From: Candidatus Thalassarchaeaceae archaeon
GTDB lineage: Archaea; Thermoplasmatota; Poseidoniia; Poseidoniales; Thalassarchaeaceae
DNA length: 18,330 nucleotides
Direction: 5' to 3'
Assembly: GCA_030747675.1 (NCBI GenBank)
Contig: JASLKH010000037.1
Location: forward strand, 1-18,330
Shown: in pieces, positions 7,380 through 11,792 of the stretch
Numbering within the stretch: position 1 is the first letter of the stretch
Layout: every line of letters starts with the position of its first letter
Notes under the pieces: model-generated
The model's input: the letters and a program-made list of their open reading frames with translations, nothing else
What the model was told of the DNA's origin: nothing
The model's database searches: none
Position numbers and translations under genes: made by a program

Positions 7380-7937
7380 TCACTCTGTGATGTCTTCATT
7401 CAATGAGTTGAATTTGTTTTGCTGTATTGTGCGTCGCTCACGATCCTTTTCATTTAACCAGGCTTCTCGAGAAGGCATTCTATGTTCTGTCCCTGCCGAT
7501 GTTGATTGAGCTCGCATTTCAATTAACCTCCGGAATGCTTGTTTGTAGTCATCAGCACGCTTTTCCCAATTTGCGGCTGGCCACCCACAATCCCAACGGC
7601 TCGAGTCAAACGTGTTTTGTTCAATCCAAGATCCACAACGAAGATTGTAACATCGTGCTCTTTCATTGTCACCTTCAACCCAAAAAGATCGCTCTTCACA
7701 AACTGGACAGGGGTTGCGATCAAATTCAGCGAGTATGAATTGACCATCTTCACCCACATAGTCGATTTCCCACACGGTTATATTTCCACTAACAATATCT
7801 GTTTCACCAGCTTTTGCGAGAAATGCTCTCAATACATCCCATGCATCTTCCTCTTTTGAGAATACACCGAGCGTTGTTTCAGAACCACCTGGGGTTGCTA
7901 CAATGGGGGCGAATACTTGCTTCAAGACGCCCTCCAT
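7380..7937 (-). CDS. Hypothetical protein with a C-x2-C-x15-C-x4-C zinc ribbon
   Basis: PCPVCEERSFWVEGDNERARCYNLRCGSW. Start uncertain: ATG 7937 avoids overlap, while 8039 would overlap the upstream gene by 65 nt. Confidence 0.75.
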   Translation of the reverse strand: MEGVLKQVFAPIVATPGGSETTLGVFSKEEDAWDVLRAFLAKAGETDIVSGNITVWEIDYVGEDGQFILAEFDRNPCPVCEERSFWVEGDNERARCYNLRCGSWIEQNTFDSSRWDCGWPAANWEKRADDYKQAFRRLIEMRAQSTSAGTEHRMPSREAWLNEKDRERRTIQQNKFNSLNEDITE

Positions 7938-7974
7938 GAGTGCGCCAGTAGTTGAAAGGTGAAATAACCCTCCG

Positions 7975-8235
7975 CTAGGATTGGTGCATAGCCAATGTTT
8001 CTGCCATGCGTTCGGGGGTTGCCGCTCTAACAACGGCAATTGGCTTTTCTTCCAGTATTAAAATGGCATAAGGGAGAACATCGATACTTGCCGTAAGAAT
8101 TGGATTTTCCTTCAATATTTTACTGGCATCAATTCTAGGCAGCCATTCAATATTTTCTTCCTTTCCAAGCAACGCTTCAAGTTCAATACAATGCAAGCAA
8201 TCATCATCTGTTATGATAGTCCACTTATGCCCCAT
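7975..8235 (-). CDS. Small thioredoxin/glutaredoxin-fold-like CxxC protein, 86 aa
   Basis: From ATG 8235: MGHKWTIITDDDCLHC...IDVLPYAILI..., i.e. beta strand, CxxC, helix, then a later xP followed by a strand, as in Trx folds. The upstream part of the track ORF is antisense to the peroxiredoxin. Confidence 0.65.
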   Translation of the reverse strand: MGHKWTIITDDDCLHCIELEALLGKEENIEWLPRIDASKILKENPILTASIDVLPYAILILEEKPIAVVRAATPERMAETLAMHQS

Positions 8236-9126: not shown

Positions 9127-9423
9127 CTATTCTTCACGTTCATGAACCCAAATAATATGATATCCAAATTCGGTTTTAACAAATCGGTCAACTTCCTTCA
9201 AAGGTTGTTCAAAGCAGGCAGCACTGAATGCCGGCACCATTTCCCTTTCATGGAACCAACCGAGATCCCCTCCCCTTTGCCCACTAGGGCATTTGGAGTA
9301 TTTTTTAGCAGCCTTTTGAAATACTTTCAAAGGTTTTTTTGCAGTATTTATTTCACTCAATATTCGTTTAGCATCTGATTTCTGTCGGAGTAATATGTGA
9401 CTCGCATGTGCACGTTTTTCCAA
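9127..9423 (-). CDS. ppiC: Parvulin-type peptidyl-prolyl cis-trans isomerase (Par10/PpiC-like), 98 aa
   Basis: ASHILL, YSKCPSGQRGGDLGWF, MVPAF, TEFGYHII. Start moved to TTG 9423 behind AGGTGG, which removes the overlap with the M28 gene; ATG 9447 is the alternative. Confidence 0.92.
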   Translation of the reverse strand: MEKRAHASHILLRQKSDAKRILSEINTAKKPLKVFQKAAKKYSKCPSGQRGGDLGWFHEREMVPAFSAACFEQPLKEVDRFVKTEFGYHIIWVHEREE

Positions 9424-9431
9424 GATACCAC

Positions 9432-11165
9432 CTACCAGGATAACCATGCAGCATATGTTCCATAGATAATGCCGCTAACAGCTAATGATTCTTCATTGAA
9501 TCGATCCATGTCGTCGTGGAATGTATGGTATTCCCATGACCCCGATCCATAGCAAACAATTGCACGTCCCGGATCGTCTCCTTCTTCTCGTTGTATGTCA
9601 TAAACAAATGGCCCATGGTCGCTGTTGTATGGCATCCCATCGGGCCCATTTTTCGGCCCGTCTAAAGTATCAACATTGATGTTATATTTGTCCGCAAGAC
9701 CCATTGGGTTTTCACTTTCAAAAGTATTAACAATTCCTCGAATGTGTTTTGTATCTCTCGCATCATTTCCAAACATCCACAATCCGTTTCCTCGGTTTTC
9801 TAAATCAATATCAACATGATTCATGTCAAGGTTGATGTAAAGTCGGAGATTTTCTTGGAGTGATGGTTGGTATTGGCTAACATATGCTTTTGAACCATGT
9901 AAACCCTCTTCTTCTCCTCCCCATGTGCAGAATTTGATTGTGTACTTCGGTTCACCAAGTTCCTCGCCGAGTTTTGCAAACTGACGAGCAAGTTCCAATA
10001 CTGTTGCAGTTCCGGAAGTATCGTCAACCGCACCAGGGCCACTATACACAGTATCATGATGTCCACCGAAAATGATTTCCTCTTCAGTCTCACCAGGCAA
10101 TACTCCGCAAGGCACCCGCACATTTCGGTCACCTTGATTATCAACATCAGTGTACAAAGCGATCAAATCATCGCCATTTCCAACACGGTCAAGGATGTCA
10201 TTACCGACATTATCACTAACCATGATGAATGGAATACCGTCTGGAAAATTCTCGAACCTAGATGTGTCAACGGATTTGAAGTAGGGAACACATCGCCCAT
10301 TTTCACCAGGAATTTTGCAATTGTTCGGTGGGTTTTCAGGATCAGGTGCGTAGGTGACAAGGATCAGTCCTGCAAGATCATTTGCTTGTGCAAGTAGGAA
10401 TATGTCGGTATTACTCGTAACTCCACCTTGGCCATACACCAGACCTATGGTGTGTGCTGCATTTGACCAATTTTGCTCAGCACTTCCATTTCCTAAATCA
10501 GTCACTCCTGTTTGGTCTTGATATCGAATATCTGCAGTGCCACTGTAACCTTGTATAACAAATTCTTCACGATGAACAAATTCAGTTTCCGAACCACCAG
10601 CAATTAGATCAGGTGGGCTACAGGGTGCCAATCCACCCAATGGCGAGTTACCTGGTGAGCAGATTGAAAGTCTCGGTTCATCTTGGATTTCGAACATTGG
10701 AACTGCAAAACTATCCATTGTCGCTGATAGGCCGAAAGATGTGAAGTTATCAAAATTCGATTGAGCCGCATTGTGTTCTTCCTGAGTCCCTGACATTCTC
10801 CCTTGCCATTGAGGGTGACCTAATGCAACTAAACCCTCTGCGAAAGCACGTGCTTGTGTGGGGTCAAAATCAATCAAATCATATGATGGCTCGCCTTCGA
10901 AAATAGATAATATTTCATCACTATAGATGAATGCAGATACTGAACCCCCAATGAGGAGTACGGCAACAACCGCAATAACGGGAGTCGTTGCCCATGGGAA
11001 TTTGTTTTGAAATCGCTCTAATCCGGCTAATTCAGTCCCGATTAGTCCTGATGAATCAGATTCAATTAATCTGGAAATTCTCTCTTTTTTATTACCTGAA
11101 GAAACTAAACCTCTCTGTTTGAGCATTTCTGCTAACTCAGATGAAGTGTGGTCTTCGTAAGCCAT
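9432..11165 (-). CDS. M28-family metallopeptidase with N-terminal SAP-like domain, TM helix and PA-like insert, 577 aa
   Basis: Metal/catalytic motifs GGHHDT, GAVDDTSG, WGGEEEGLHGS, INLDM and YHTFHD. N-terminal TSSELAEMLKQRGLVSSGNKKERISRL is SAP-like; TM at about aa 62-81. Start moved to ATG 11165. Confidence 0.9.
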   Translation of the reverse strand: MAYEDHTSSELAEMLKQRGLVSSGNKKERISRLIESDSSGLIGTELAGLERFQNKFPWATTPVIAVVAVLLIGGSVSAFIYSDEILSIFEGEPSYDLIDFDPTQARAFAEGLVALGHPQWQGRMSGTQEEHNAAQSNFDNFTSFGLSATMDSFAVPMFEIQDEPRLSICSPGNSPLGGLAPCSPPDLIAGGSETEFVHREEFVIQGYSGTADIRYQDQTGVTDLGNGSAEQNWSNAAHTIGLVYGQGGVTSNTDIFLLAQANDLAGLILVTYAPDPENPPNNCKIPGENGRCVPYFKSVDTSRFENFPDGIPFIMVSDNVGNDILDRVGNGDDLIALYTDVDNQGDRNVRVPCGVLPGETEEEIIFGGHHDTVYSGPGAVDDTSGTATVLELARQFAKLGEELGEPKYTIKFCTWGGEEEGLHGSKAYVSQYQPSLQENLRLYINLDMNHVDIDLENRGNGLWMFGNDARDTKHIRGIVNTFESENPMGLADKYNINVDTLDGPKNGPDGMPYNSDHGPFVYDIQREEGDDPGRAIVCYGSGSWEYHTFHDDMDRFNEESLAVSGIIYGTYAAWLSW

Positions 11166-11219
11166 AATTCTCTCTTCCTGTAAATTGCGTACGCGTTTGG
11201 CATTATTCAAGTCGTGGGT

Positions 11220-11792
11220 CTATTGGACCTCTTCACCTGTCCAACGTGCACCTAATTCGTGTTCAATTCCCATTTGGTCAAGGATTCGAGCGACAACGAA
11301 GTCTACCAAATCTTCGATATTAGTGGGTTTGTTATAGAAACCAGGGCTTGCTGGAAGGACAACAACTCCCCAATTTGACAATTTTGTCATGTTCTCTAAA
11401 TGTACTGTCGCATAGGGTGACTCTCGAGGGACAACAATAAGTGGCCGTCGCTCTTTTAGAGCGACAAGTGCTGAACGAGTGACGAGGTTGTCAGATATCC
11501 CAGTAGCTATTTTGCTAATGGTTGTTCCACTTGCGGGACAGATTACGTAATGATCAATCTTGGCAGAACCAGATGCAGACCTAGCTGCGAGGTTGTCATT
11601 ATTTTCGAGGGACACACCAGGAAGTTCTGACAAATCAGCCGCAGTCATACTTAATTCTAGATTGAGGTTTATCTCTCCTTCTCTTGTGACAATGAGAAGA
11701 ACTTTCCACCCCGAATTTGATAATGCACGTAGTAATCGTTCTGCATAAAGAGCGCCGGATGCACCAGTTATTGCAACAACAGCCTCTGGCAT
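11220..11792 (-). CDS. ubiX: Flavin prenyltransferase UbiX
   Basis: AITGASGA, ASGS, CPASGTT, DNLVTRSA-VALKERRPL, RESP, PASPGFY, DFVVARILD. Confidence 0.95.
   Translation of the reverse strand: MPEAVVAITGASGALYAERLLRALSNSGWKVLLIVTREGEINLNLELSMTAADLSELPGVSLENNDNLAARSASGSAKIDHYVICPASGTTISKIATGISDNLVTRSALVALKERRPLIVVPRESPYATVHLENMTKLSNWGVVVLPASPGFYNKPTNIEDLVDFVVARILDQMGIEHELGARWTGEEVQ

What the first reader, a model, noticed from the sequence alone, without database searches (positions are those of the whole stretch)
9432..11165. SAP domain - TM - M28 peptidase: a nucleic-acid-binding module fused across the membrane to a protease
Seen: aa 2-35 match the SAP helix-extended-helix pattern (EL...LKQRGL..SGNKKERI.RL), one TM follows at about aa 62-81, then a complete M28 peptidase with all metal-ligand motifs and Cys pairs (CSPGNSPLGGLAPC, CKIPGENGRC) suited to an external domain. 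Known: SAP domains bind DNA/RNA; M28/PA enzymes are usually secreted amino- or carboxypeptidases; MGII are considered protein degraders. Inferred: a cytoplasmic SAP and external peptidase could tether chromosome or mRNA to the membrane, localise the enzyme, or signal substrate availability. I do not know this architecture as characterised.
Basis: partly seen in the sequence, partly recalled or inferred. Interest (0 to 1): 0.7.

Follow-up and report, generated by a model that had tools for sequence, protein, structure and literature searches.

The report
Surface aminopeptidase with cytoplasmic SAP tail
A Marine Group II archaeon anchors an ordinary zinc aminopeptidase on the outside of its membrane and carries a small, diverged SAP (nucleic-acid-binding type) domain on the short tail inside the cell. 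The same module sits on other surface proteins and on two ribosomal proteins of this lineage, and what it does has not been tested.

Summary
The ORF at window 9435-11165 (minus strand, 577 aa, ATG start) has four parts:
- a SAP helix-loop-helix, aa 1-38
- a variable linker
- one membrane helix, aa 63-81
- a complete PA-type M28 aminopeptidase with every metal-ligand motif and seven invariant cysteines

This copy of SAP is diverged. It scores 15 bits against a Pfam cut-off of 23.9. It is still real: a profile of eight unrelated SAP domains from the same genome finds it at E 4e-6, and it is the only extra hit among 17,728 ORFs. In addition, 26 of 38 orthologs match Pfam SAP, and the AlphaFold model is confident.

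The fusion is not a protease-specific device. Six single-pass or polytopic membrane proteins of this genome carry SAP. It lies at whichever end is on the predicted cytoplasmic side. Ribosomal proteins eL32 and eS1 carry it too. All 61 Poseidoniales genomes sampled have 3-10 SAP matches, and none of 14 model prokaryotes has one above the cut-off.

The peptidase gene is a syntenic core gene, found in 56 of 61 genomes. It has lost the SAP at least twice. The most likely role is an accessory, low-specificity nucleic-acid or nucleoid tether; this is inferred, not shown.

This scan had already found the same architecture on other DNA. I found no published description.

The parts
9432..11165 (-). Whole CDS (577 aa plus stop): SAP, linker, membrane helix, PA-type M28 aminopeptidase
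   Evidence: ORF list and translation. Full-length orthologs at 47-77% identity in Poseidoniales.
11168..11178 (-). Purine-rich stretch (GGAAGAGAGAA) 2-12 nt upstream of the ATG, a possible ribosome-binding site
   Evidence: Read directly from the sequence. Its function was not tested.
11052..11165 (-). SAP domain, aa 1-38 (helix 8-17, extended loop, helix 26-38), predicted cytoplasmic
   Evidence: Pfam SAP at 15.2 bits, sub-threshold. Same-genome SAP profile at E 3.9e-6 genome-wide. The four residues invariant in 26 SAP segments (L11, G24, K26, R32) are all kept. AF2 pLDDT about 90. The top Foldseek hits are all SAP domains, with non-significant E-values.
10980..11051 (-). Variable linker, aa 39-62, low model confidence
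   Evidence: pLDDT 46-65. Identity to orthologs is 0-50%, against 32-76% for the SAP segment.
10923..10979 (-). Single membrane helix (signal anchor), aa 63-81
   Evidence: Hydropathy peak of 2.45. AF2 helix 61-80. In the 15 flanking residues, K/R count is 2 on the SAP side and 0 on the other side.
10656..10922 (-). First part of the peptidase domain, aa 82-170, with the conserved NFT sequon at N140 and Cys169
   Evidence: Alignment A1. The sequon is conserved in 38 of 38 orthologs. The fold matches PA-M28 aminopeptidases over the whole ectodomain.
10167..10655 (-). Inserted PA-like (apical) domain, aa 171-333, with invariant Cys182, Cys283 and Cys292
   Evidence: No Pfam family matches aa 83-355. 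Its position and fold correspond to the PA domain of 2ek8, BSAP and PaAP.
9435..10166 (-). M28 catalytic core, aa 334-577. Motif residues are H369, D381, E418/E419, D447 and H547
   Evidence: PF04389 at E 1.4e-27. Motifs align with PaAP, NAALADase-L, 2ek8 and GCPIII. All are invariant in 38 orthologs.

Best explanation
The gene encodes a type II (N-in, C-out) membrane-anchored, PA-domain M28 zinc aminopeptidase. It trims peptides at the cell surface of a protein-degrading Marine Group II (Poseidoniales) archaeon.

Its 62-residue cytoplasmic tail starts with a small SAP helix-extended-loop-helix domain on a flexible linker. This SAP is one copy of a module that this archaeal class has placed on the cytoplasmic ends of many surface proteins and on ribosomal proteins eL32 and eS1.

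The most likely job of the module is weak, sequence-independent binding to nucleic acid (nucleoid DNA or RNA). That would tie or position envelope proteins and ribosomes relative to the nucleoid. For this peptidase the module is an accessory that can be lost.

Shown here: the domain architecture, intact catalytic motifs, predicted topology, lineage distribution and the losses. Inferred: enzyme activity, nucleic-acid binding and any tethering.
For: Architecture:
- M28 at E 1.4e-27.
- The ectodomain fold is closest to PA-M28 aminopeptidases: 2ek8 at E 2e-26, and BSAP (6hc6) at TM 0.76 of target.
- Metal-ligand and catalytic motifs align with solved enzymes and are invariant in orthologs.

SAP:
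- Same-genome profile at E 3.9e-6, the only extra hit among 17,728 ORFs.
- 26 of 38 orthologs match PF02037.
- A profile of 26 such segments hits solved SAP domains: MKL1 at 1.3e-14, Tho1 at 5e-11, also Ku70, SARNP and SIZ1.
- The AF2 model is confident.

Topology: in 6 of 6 SAP-bearing membrane proteins of this genome, the membrane-helix flank on the SAP side has more K/R (2-4 against 0-2), whether SAP is N- or C-terminal. The ectodomain has 7 invariant Cys and a fully conserved sequon.

Generality:
- Eight further SAP proteins occur in the same 78%-complete genome. They include an S8 subtilase, a 2365-aa surface giant, a TSP3-repeat protein, eL32 and eS1.
- 61 of 61 Poseidoniales genomes have 3-10 matches. 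Most other Thermoplasmatota sampled have 0-1, and 0 of 14 control genomes has a match above the cut-off.

Selection: the SAP segment is 71-76% identical to the closest orthologs, against 50% for the linker.
Against: - No experiment shows that any archaeal SAP binds nucleic acid.
- This copy falls below the Pfam cut-off and has a near-neutral net charge (8 K/R against 9 D/E in the tail).
- In three sister genomes of the same genus the motif is further degenerated (0-10 bits).
- The SAP is missing from the peptidase in one whole genus and part of another, with a stop codon upstream. Whatever it does is therefore dispensable for the enzyme.
- Foldseek E-values for the isolated 60-aa model are not significant.
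Confidence: 0.55

Rival explanations
1. The SAP tail is a protein-protein handle rather than a nucleic-acid binder. A lineage-specific cytoplasmic partner would recognise it to sort, cluster, immobilise or turn over surface proteins and ribosomes.
For: The same module sits on functionally unrelated proteins at either terminus, usually after a long acidic linker. That pattern fits a generic tag. The SAP segments are near neutral in charge.
Against: The module matches bona fide DNA/RNA-binding SAP domains at E 1e-14 to 1e-7 and keeps their conserved Gly-x-Lys and Arg positions. No candidate partner was identified here.
Confidence: 0.22
2. In this particular protein the SAP is a decaying relic with no present function, kept only because losing it is neutral.
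For: It scores below the Pfam threshold. The motif is degenerated in the three other genomes of the genus: the Gly of the loop is replaced and the profile score is 0-10 bits. The tree requires at least two independent complete losses. Small-genome genera carry fewer SAP copies.
Against: The segment is clearly better conserved than the adjacent linker (71-76% against 50% with the closest orthologs). It keeps all four residues invariant across 26 SAPs. It is modelled with pLDDT about 90.
Confidence: 0.13
3. Trans-membrane signalling: substrate binding or regulated intramembrane proteolysis releases the SAP fragment, which then acts on DNA as a regulator.
For: A DNA-binding-type domain and an extracellular enzyme lie on opposite sides of one membrane helix.
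Against: - SAP domains are not sequence-specific regulators.
- The same tail is on ribosomal proteins and on many other membrane proteins.
- It is lost twice without any change to the enzyme.
- The conserved neighbours are UbiX, parvulin, FolB and peroxiredoxin. None is a protease or a regulator.
Confidence: 0.05
4. The N-terminal SAP is an artefact: a chance motif or an untranslated region, with the true start downstream.
For: The single-sequence Pfam score is below threshold.
Against: The genome-wide profile E-value is 3.9e-6. The segment is conserved at the protein level in 33 of 38 orthologs. The only downstream ATG before the membrane helix is Met14, inside helix 1.
Confidence: 0.03

Closest known systems
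Secreted PA-domain M28 aminopeptidases: Aneurinibacillus sp. AM-1 aminopeptidase (PDB 2ek8), B. subtilis BSAP/YwaD (6hc6), P. aeruginosa PaAP (8ac9), Shewanella M28 (3iib)
   Same: The ectodomain has the same fold, an M28 core with an inserted PA-like domain: Foldseek E 1e-23 to 2e-26, TM up to 0.76 of target. The co-catalytic zinc motifs are the same.
   Different: Those enzymes are secreted with a cleaved signal peptide or propeptide. This one keeps an uncleaved N-terminal membrane helix and has a 62-aa cytoplasmic tail with SAP. Sequence identity is only 14-18%. Pfam PA (PF02225) is not matched.
M28B type II membrane proteins: glutamate carboxypeptidase II/III, NAALADase-L, transferrin receptor
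   Same: The layout is the same type II arrangement: cytoplasmic N-tail, one membrane helix, then an M28 domain with an apical/PA insert.
   Different: There is no C-terminal helical dimerisation domain; the protein ends just after the catalytic core. The cytoplasmic tail carries a folded SAP rather than endocytic motifs. Relatedness is no closer than to the bacterial PA-M28 enzymes.
Eukaryotic SAP domains (Pfam PF02037: MKL1 2kvu, Tho1 1h1j/4uzw, SARNP/Hcc-1 2do1, hnRNPUL1 1zrj, Ku70 1jjr, SIZ1/PIAS)
   Same: The 35-aa helix-extended-loop-helix is the same, with the same conserved Leu, Gly-x-Lys and Arg-Leu pattern. The profile of the archaeal segments hits them at 1e-14 to 1e-5.
   Different: Those are soluble nuclear proteins. 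Here the domain is joined to a membrane helix in an archaeon. This copy is diverged below the Pfam cut-off.
Inner-nuclear-membrane LEM/HeH proteins (Lem2/Heh1, Man1/Heh2, emerin, LAP2)
   Same: They work alike in outline: a roughly 40-residue helix-loop-helix at the N-terminus of a membrane protein, facing the compartment that holds the chromosome. It is used to tether chromatin to the membrane (PMC3810338).
   Different: This is not shown to be homologous at family level. Pfam HeH (PF12949) was not matched by the target, and the best SAP copy of this genome matched it only below threshold. The other side of the membrane here carries an extracellular hydrolase. DNA binding is untested.

Membership tests
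SAP domain (Pfam PF02037) | Profile match at or above the curated cut-off (23.9 bits) | tested here: inconclusive
   The target alone scores 15.2 bits, E 0.017, which does not meet the cut-off. At the family level, 26 of 38 orthologs match at E<=0.01, best 8.5e-14. A same-genome SAP profile hits the target at E 3.9e-6 genome-wide.
SAP domain (Pfam PF02037) | About 35-residue helix, extended loop, helix fold | tested here: met
   AF2 gives helices 8-17 and 26-38/39 with pLDDT 89-93 in two independent models. The ten best Foldseek hits are all solved SAP domains (Tho1 prob 0.97, TM 0.64/0.77), though the E-values are not significant for so small a domain.
SAP domain (Pfam PF02037) | Conserved motif positions: Leu in helix 1, Gly-x-Lys in the loop, Arg-Leu in helix 2 | tested here: met
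   L11, G24, K26 and R32 are invariant across 26 SAP segments (orthologs and paralogs) and are present in the target.
SAP domain (Pfam PF02037) | Binds DNA or RNA | not testable with these tools
   Needs EMSA or anisotropy with the purified domain.
Peptidase family M28 (Pfam PF04389, MEROPS M28) | Profile match above the cut-off | tested here: met
   97.1 bits against a cut-off of 21.3, covering aa 355-563.
Peptidase family M28 (Pfam PF04389, MEROPS M28) | Co-catalytic zinc ligands His, Asp, Glu, Asp, His, plus the catalytic Glu before the ligand Glu | tested here: met
   H369 (GGHHD), D381 (GAVDDTSG), E418-E419 (GGEEEGLHGS), D447 (NLDM) and H547 (YHTFHD) align with the same motifs in PaAP, NAALADase-L, 2ek8 and GCPIII. 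They are invariant in 38 orthologs. Assigning residues to roles follows established M28 motifs and was not measured.
Peptidase family M28 (Pfam PF04389, MEROPS M28) | Aminopeptidase or carboxypeptidase activity | not testable with these tools
   Needs an enzyme assay of the recombinant ectodomain.
PA (protease-associated) domain, Pfam PF02225 | Profile match and insertion within the M28 domain | tested here: inconclusive
   No Pfam family matches aa 83-355. The insert at aa 171-333 occupies the PA position, and whole-ectodomain fold matches are best to PA-containing M28 enzymes.
M28B subfamily (GCPII / transferrin receptor) | C-terminal helical dimerisation domain after the catalytic domain | tested here: not met
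   The protein ends at aa 577, directly after the last helix of the M28 core. No further domain is detected.
LEM/HeH inner-nuclear-membrane tethers | HeH/LEM profile match (PF12949 or LEM) on a membrane protein | tested here: not met
   Only SAP and SAP_new25 were reported for the N-terminus. The resemblance is functional and architectural, not family membership.

The most novel reading that the evidence does not exclude
The SAP modules on cytoplasmic tails of surface hydrolases and adhesin-like giants, and on ribosomal proteins eL32 and eS1, form one system that physically couples envelope and ribosomes to the nucleoid in Poseidoniales. This would be a prokaryotic counterpart of chromatin-membrane tethering by eukaryotic HeH/LEM/SAP proteins, using a domain so far regarded as essentially eukaryotic.
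Probability: 0.25. Interest if true: 0.8.

Novelty: new variant of a known kind. Interest (0 to 1): 0.5.

Why it matters
Marine Group II archaea are among the most abundant microbes of the surface ocean and have no pure-culture isolate, and their cell biology is essentially unknown. A eukaryote-type SAP module is present 3-10 times in every genome sampled, on the inner tails of surface enzymes and on ribosomal proteins. If it binds the nucleoid, it would reveal how these cells organise envelope, translation and chromosome. It would also bear on the origin of SAP/HeH tethers.

For this one gene the practical points are more modest. The enzyme is a cell-attached, not released, aminopeptidase, which matters for models of protein degradation by MGII. 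Its annotation should also include the SAP tail.

Tried and rejected
- Pfam on the whole protein did not report SAP at all, even at E<=10. Only the isolated N-terminus gave a sub-threshold hit.
- Pfam found no family in aa 83-355, so the PA assignment rests on fold only.
- Foldseek with the isolated 60-aa model ranks only SAP domains at the top but gives no significant E-value.
I therefore could not check whether the SAP-less gene calls P0034, P0007, P0098, P0105 and P0120 are true losses or mis-called starts. Instead I examined the DNA of 29 orthologous loci from whole genomes. Seven of them have a stop codon upstream and no SAP.
- Sequon enrichment in the ectodomain was tested and is not above chance: 3 observed against 3.5 expected. 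Only the conservation of N140 is informative.
- The group statistics printed with the tree count only labelled rows, so I did not use them. The count of losses was read from the supported topology.
- Three literature searches found no paper that links SAP domains with MGII, Poseidoniales or Thermoplasmatota. The library lacks most subscription journals, so this is not proof of absence.
- A functional link to the conserved upstream UbiX gene was considered and rejected for lack of any rationale. It looks like conserved core synteny.

Full report
**1. The gene**

The finding lies on the minus strand. The open frame runs from 11219 to the stop at 9432-9434.
- The first ATG is at 11165 and gives 577 aa. 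It is preceded by a purine-rich stretch.
- A TTG 15 codons further upstream is possible but unlikely. In three sister genomes a stop lies only four codons upstream of the equivalent ATG.
- The only other ATG before the membrane helix is Met14, inside the first SAP helix.

**2. The peptidase**

- Pfam gives Peptidase_M28 at aa 355-563, E 1.4e-27.
- The AlphaFold model built on 38 orthologs has mean pLDDT 83.5.
- Foldseek places the ectodomain closest to M28 aminopeptidases with an inserted PA domain: Aneurinibacillus 2ek8 (E 2e-26), P. aeruginosa PaAP, B. subtilis BSAP (TM 0.76 of target) and Shewanella 3iib. The transferrin receptor and GCPII/III come next.
- The motif residues align with the corresponding motifs of solved enzymes and are invariant in 38 orthologs. 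They are H369, D381, E418/E419, D447 and H547.
- Pfam finds nothing in aa 83-355, so the PA-like insert (about aa 171-333) is assigned by fold and position only.
- There is no C-terminal dimerisation domain, so the protein is not an M28B member.

**3. The SAP domain**

On its own the target fails the Pfam cut-off: 15.2 against 23.9 bits, E 0.017, when only the first 50 aa are scanned. Four independent lines show it is nevertheless a SAP.
- I built a profile from the eight other SAP domains of the same genome that are not orthologs of this protein. Seven are over the Pfam cut-off and one is just under it. The profile hits aa 1-33 at 26 bits. Searched against all 17,728 six-frame ORFs of at least 40 aa in the genome, it recovers its eight members plus exactly one further ORF, this one, at E 3.9e-6.
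- 33 of 38 aligned orthologs have the segment, and 26 match PF02037 at E<=0.01, best 8.5e-14.
- An alignment of 26 segments (target, 17 orthologs, 8 paralogs) has four invariant columns: L11, G24, K26 and R32. All are kept by the target. Its profile hits solved SAP domains: MKL1 at 1.3e-14, Tho1 at 5e-11, then hnRNPUL1, SARNP, Ku70, SIZ1, SF3B2 and pTAC3.
- Two AlphaFold models give helix 8-17, an extended loop, and helix 26-38 with pLDDT about 90. The ten best Foldseek hits of the isolated model are all SAP domains, although none is statistically significant for a domain this small.

**4. Topology**

- The hydrophobic helix is aa 63-81.
- The 15 residues before it hold 2 K/R and the 15 after it hold none (net charge +1 against -5).
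- The ectodomain is strongly acidic. All seven of its cysteines are conserved in 37-38 of 38 orthologs. The N140 sequon is conserved in 38 of 38.
- The same K/R asymmetry holds in all six SAP-bearing membrane proteins of the genome, whether the SAP is N-terminal or C-terminal.
- This supports SAP inside and peptidase outside. It is prediction, not measurement.

**5. The fusion is one instance of a lineage-wide pattern**

A six-frame search of the window's own assembly (1.68 Mb, 78% complete) with PF02037 finds eight ORFs with their own SAP match above the cut-off. Pfam and hydropathy analysis of these proteins shows the following.

| Protein (G000 contig) | Position of SAP |
|---|---|
| Ribosomal protein eL32 (C29) | N-terminal |
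| Ribosomal protein eS1/S3Ae (C72) | C-terminal |
| 693-aa protein (C24) | SAP, acidic linker, membrane helix, ectodomain |
| S8 subtilase (C52) | Membrane helix, then C-terminal SAP |
| TSP3-repeat protein (C33) | Membrane helix, then C-terminal SAP |
| 2365-aa surface giant with signal peptide (C99) | Membrane helix, EF-hand-like tail, then C-terminal SAP |
| Four-helix membrane protein (C56) | N-terminal |
| 5'-truncated Pro-rich ORF (C6) | C-terminal |

Two complete genomes of the order and one of the sister order show the same mix.

Distribution of SAP matches:
- All 61 Poseidoniales genomes sampled have 3-10 matches above the cut-off. The small-genome genera have fewest.
- In a sample of 151 Thermoplasmatota, multi-copy SAP is confined to the class that contains the window. 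22 other genomes have matches, 19 of them a single one, and 103 have none.
- None of 14 model prokaryotes has a match above the cut-off.

**6. History of this fusion**

- The peptidase is found in 56 of 61 Poseidoniales genomes, one copy each in 55 of them and two in G053.
- UbiX lies immediately upstream in 29 of 30 loci examined. Parvulin and FolB, or a peroxiredoxin, lie downstream. It is therefore a vertically inherited core gene.
- More distant relatives (34-40% identity, about 470-490 aa) start at the membrane helix and have no tail.
- In 29 loci read at the DNA level, 21 have a detectable SAP and one more has an obviously homologous but degenerate one. Seven have a stop codon upstream of a short tail and no SAP.
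- On a well-supported tree of the ectodomains, the seven SAP-less genes fall in two places: the whole of one genus, and a pair nested inside SAP-bearing members of another genus. That requires at least two losses.
- In the window's own genus the three other genomes have a degenerated motif (0-10 bits), whereas the window's copy scores 25 bits.
- The SAP segment is nevertheless better conserved than the linker next to it: 71-76% against 50% with the closest orthologs, and 32-55% against 0-20% with distant ones.

**7. Interpretation**

What is shown: a membrane-anchored PA-M28 aminopeptidase with a real, diverged SAP domain on the side of the membrane predicted to be cytoplasmic.

What is inferred: the SAP binds nucleic acid, as its solved eukaryotic relatives do, and so ties or positions the protein relative to the nucleoid or to RNA.

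Three facts point to a general, accessory, low-specificity function:
- the same module is on ribosomal proteins;
- it is on many unrelated surface proteins;
- it has been lost from this peptidase twice.

They argue against a protease-specific signalling device. I cannot separate nucleic-acid binding from binding to a lineage-specific protein partner, nor exclude that this particular copy is drifting towards loss.

The closest architectural analogy is the eukaryotic inner-nuclear-membrane LEM/HeH proteins, which tether chromatin to the membrane (PMC3810338). Family membership there was tested and not met.

**8. Novelty and earlier findings of this scan**

Three full-text searches found no paper that connects SAP domains with these archaea.

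This scan had already reported the same SAP, membrane helix, M28 family on other genomes (e1-934147, e1-1485421). It had also reported the SAP tails on surface giants and on eS1 and eL32, including on other pieces of this genome. I reached my reading before opening those notes, and it agrees with them.

This report adds:
- the genome-wide profile test for this diverged copy;
- the six-of-six topology rule;
- the DNA-level count and tree placement of losses;
- the order-wide and phylum-wide tallies.

Noticed in passing
L012 (G000:C29:11143-11778) and L013 (G000:C72:8490-9458): Ribosomal proteins eL32 (N-terminal SAP plus a hyper-acidic linker) and eS1/S3Ae (C-terminal SAP) of the same genome carry strong SAP domains, at 62 and 47 bits. 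The same fusions appear in two other genomes of the class.
   Followed up: partly
L015 (G000:C52:2-2035), L017 (G000:C33:3-2186), L018 (G000:C99:21350-28444), L014 (G000:C24:4809-6887), L016 (G000:C56:2410-3135): Five further membrane proteins have SAP on the predicted cytoplasmic end. They are an S8 subtilase, a TSP3-repeat protein, a 2365-aa giant with an InhA-like MAM domain and EF-hand-like tail, a 693-aa protein with an unknown ectodomain, and a four-helix membrane protein.
   Followed up: partly
L021 (G000:C32:3394-7014): A 1207-aa ORF matches the single-subunit (phage T7-type) RNA polymerase family PF00940 and a phage zinc-finger family. It has a weak SAP-like segment near aa 1071, and may belong to a virus or mobile element.
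   Followed up: no
L020 (G000:C95:28804-30570): A 589-aa soluble protein has SAP-like repeats. It matches SAP_new25 (PF18953) above its cut-off and has no membrane helix.
   Followed up: no
window 11220-11792 (-) and loci L041-L069: A UbiX-type flavoprotein gene lies immediately upstream of the peptidase gene in 29 of 30 Poseidoniales loci. Downstream are parvulin and FolB, or a peroxiredoxin. This is conserved core synteny with no obvious functional link.
   Followed up: partly
window 9127-9447 (-): The annotated start of a single-domain parvulin (PPIC-type rotamase) ORF overlaps the last 16 nt of the peptidase gene. The first 10 or so codons are not conserved in orthologs, so the true start may lie a little downstream.
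   Followed up: no
window 7380-8039 (-): A 219-aa ORF has no Pfam match and contains CxxC...C...C spacing that suggests a zinc ribbon.
   Followed up: no
L027, L037 (genome G003), L025 (genome G086): In other genomes of the class, SAP is also appended to or inserted in further soluble proteins. Examples are a 319-aa and a 591-aa ORF in G003, and a 253-aa ORF in G086 with a basic, ribosomal-protein-like N-part. Their families were not identified.
   Followed up: no
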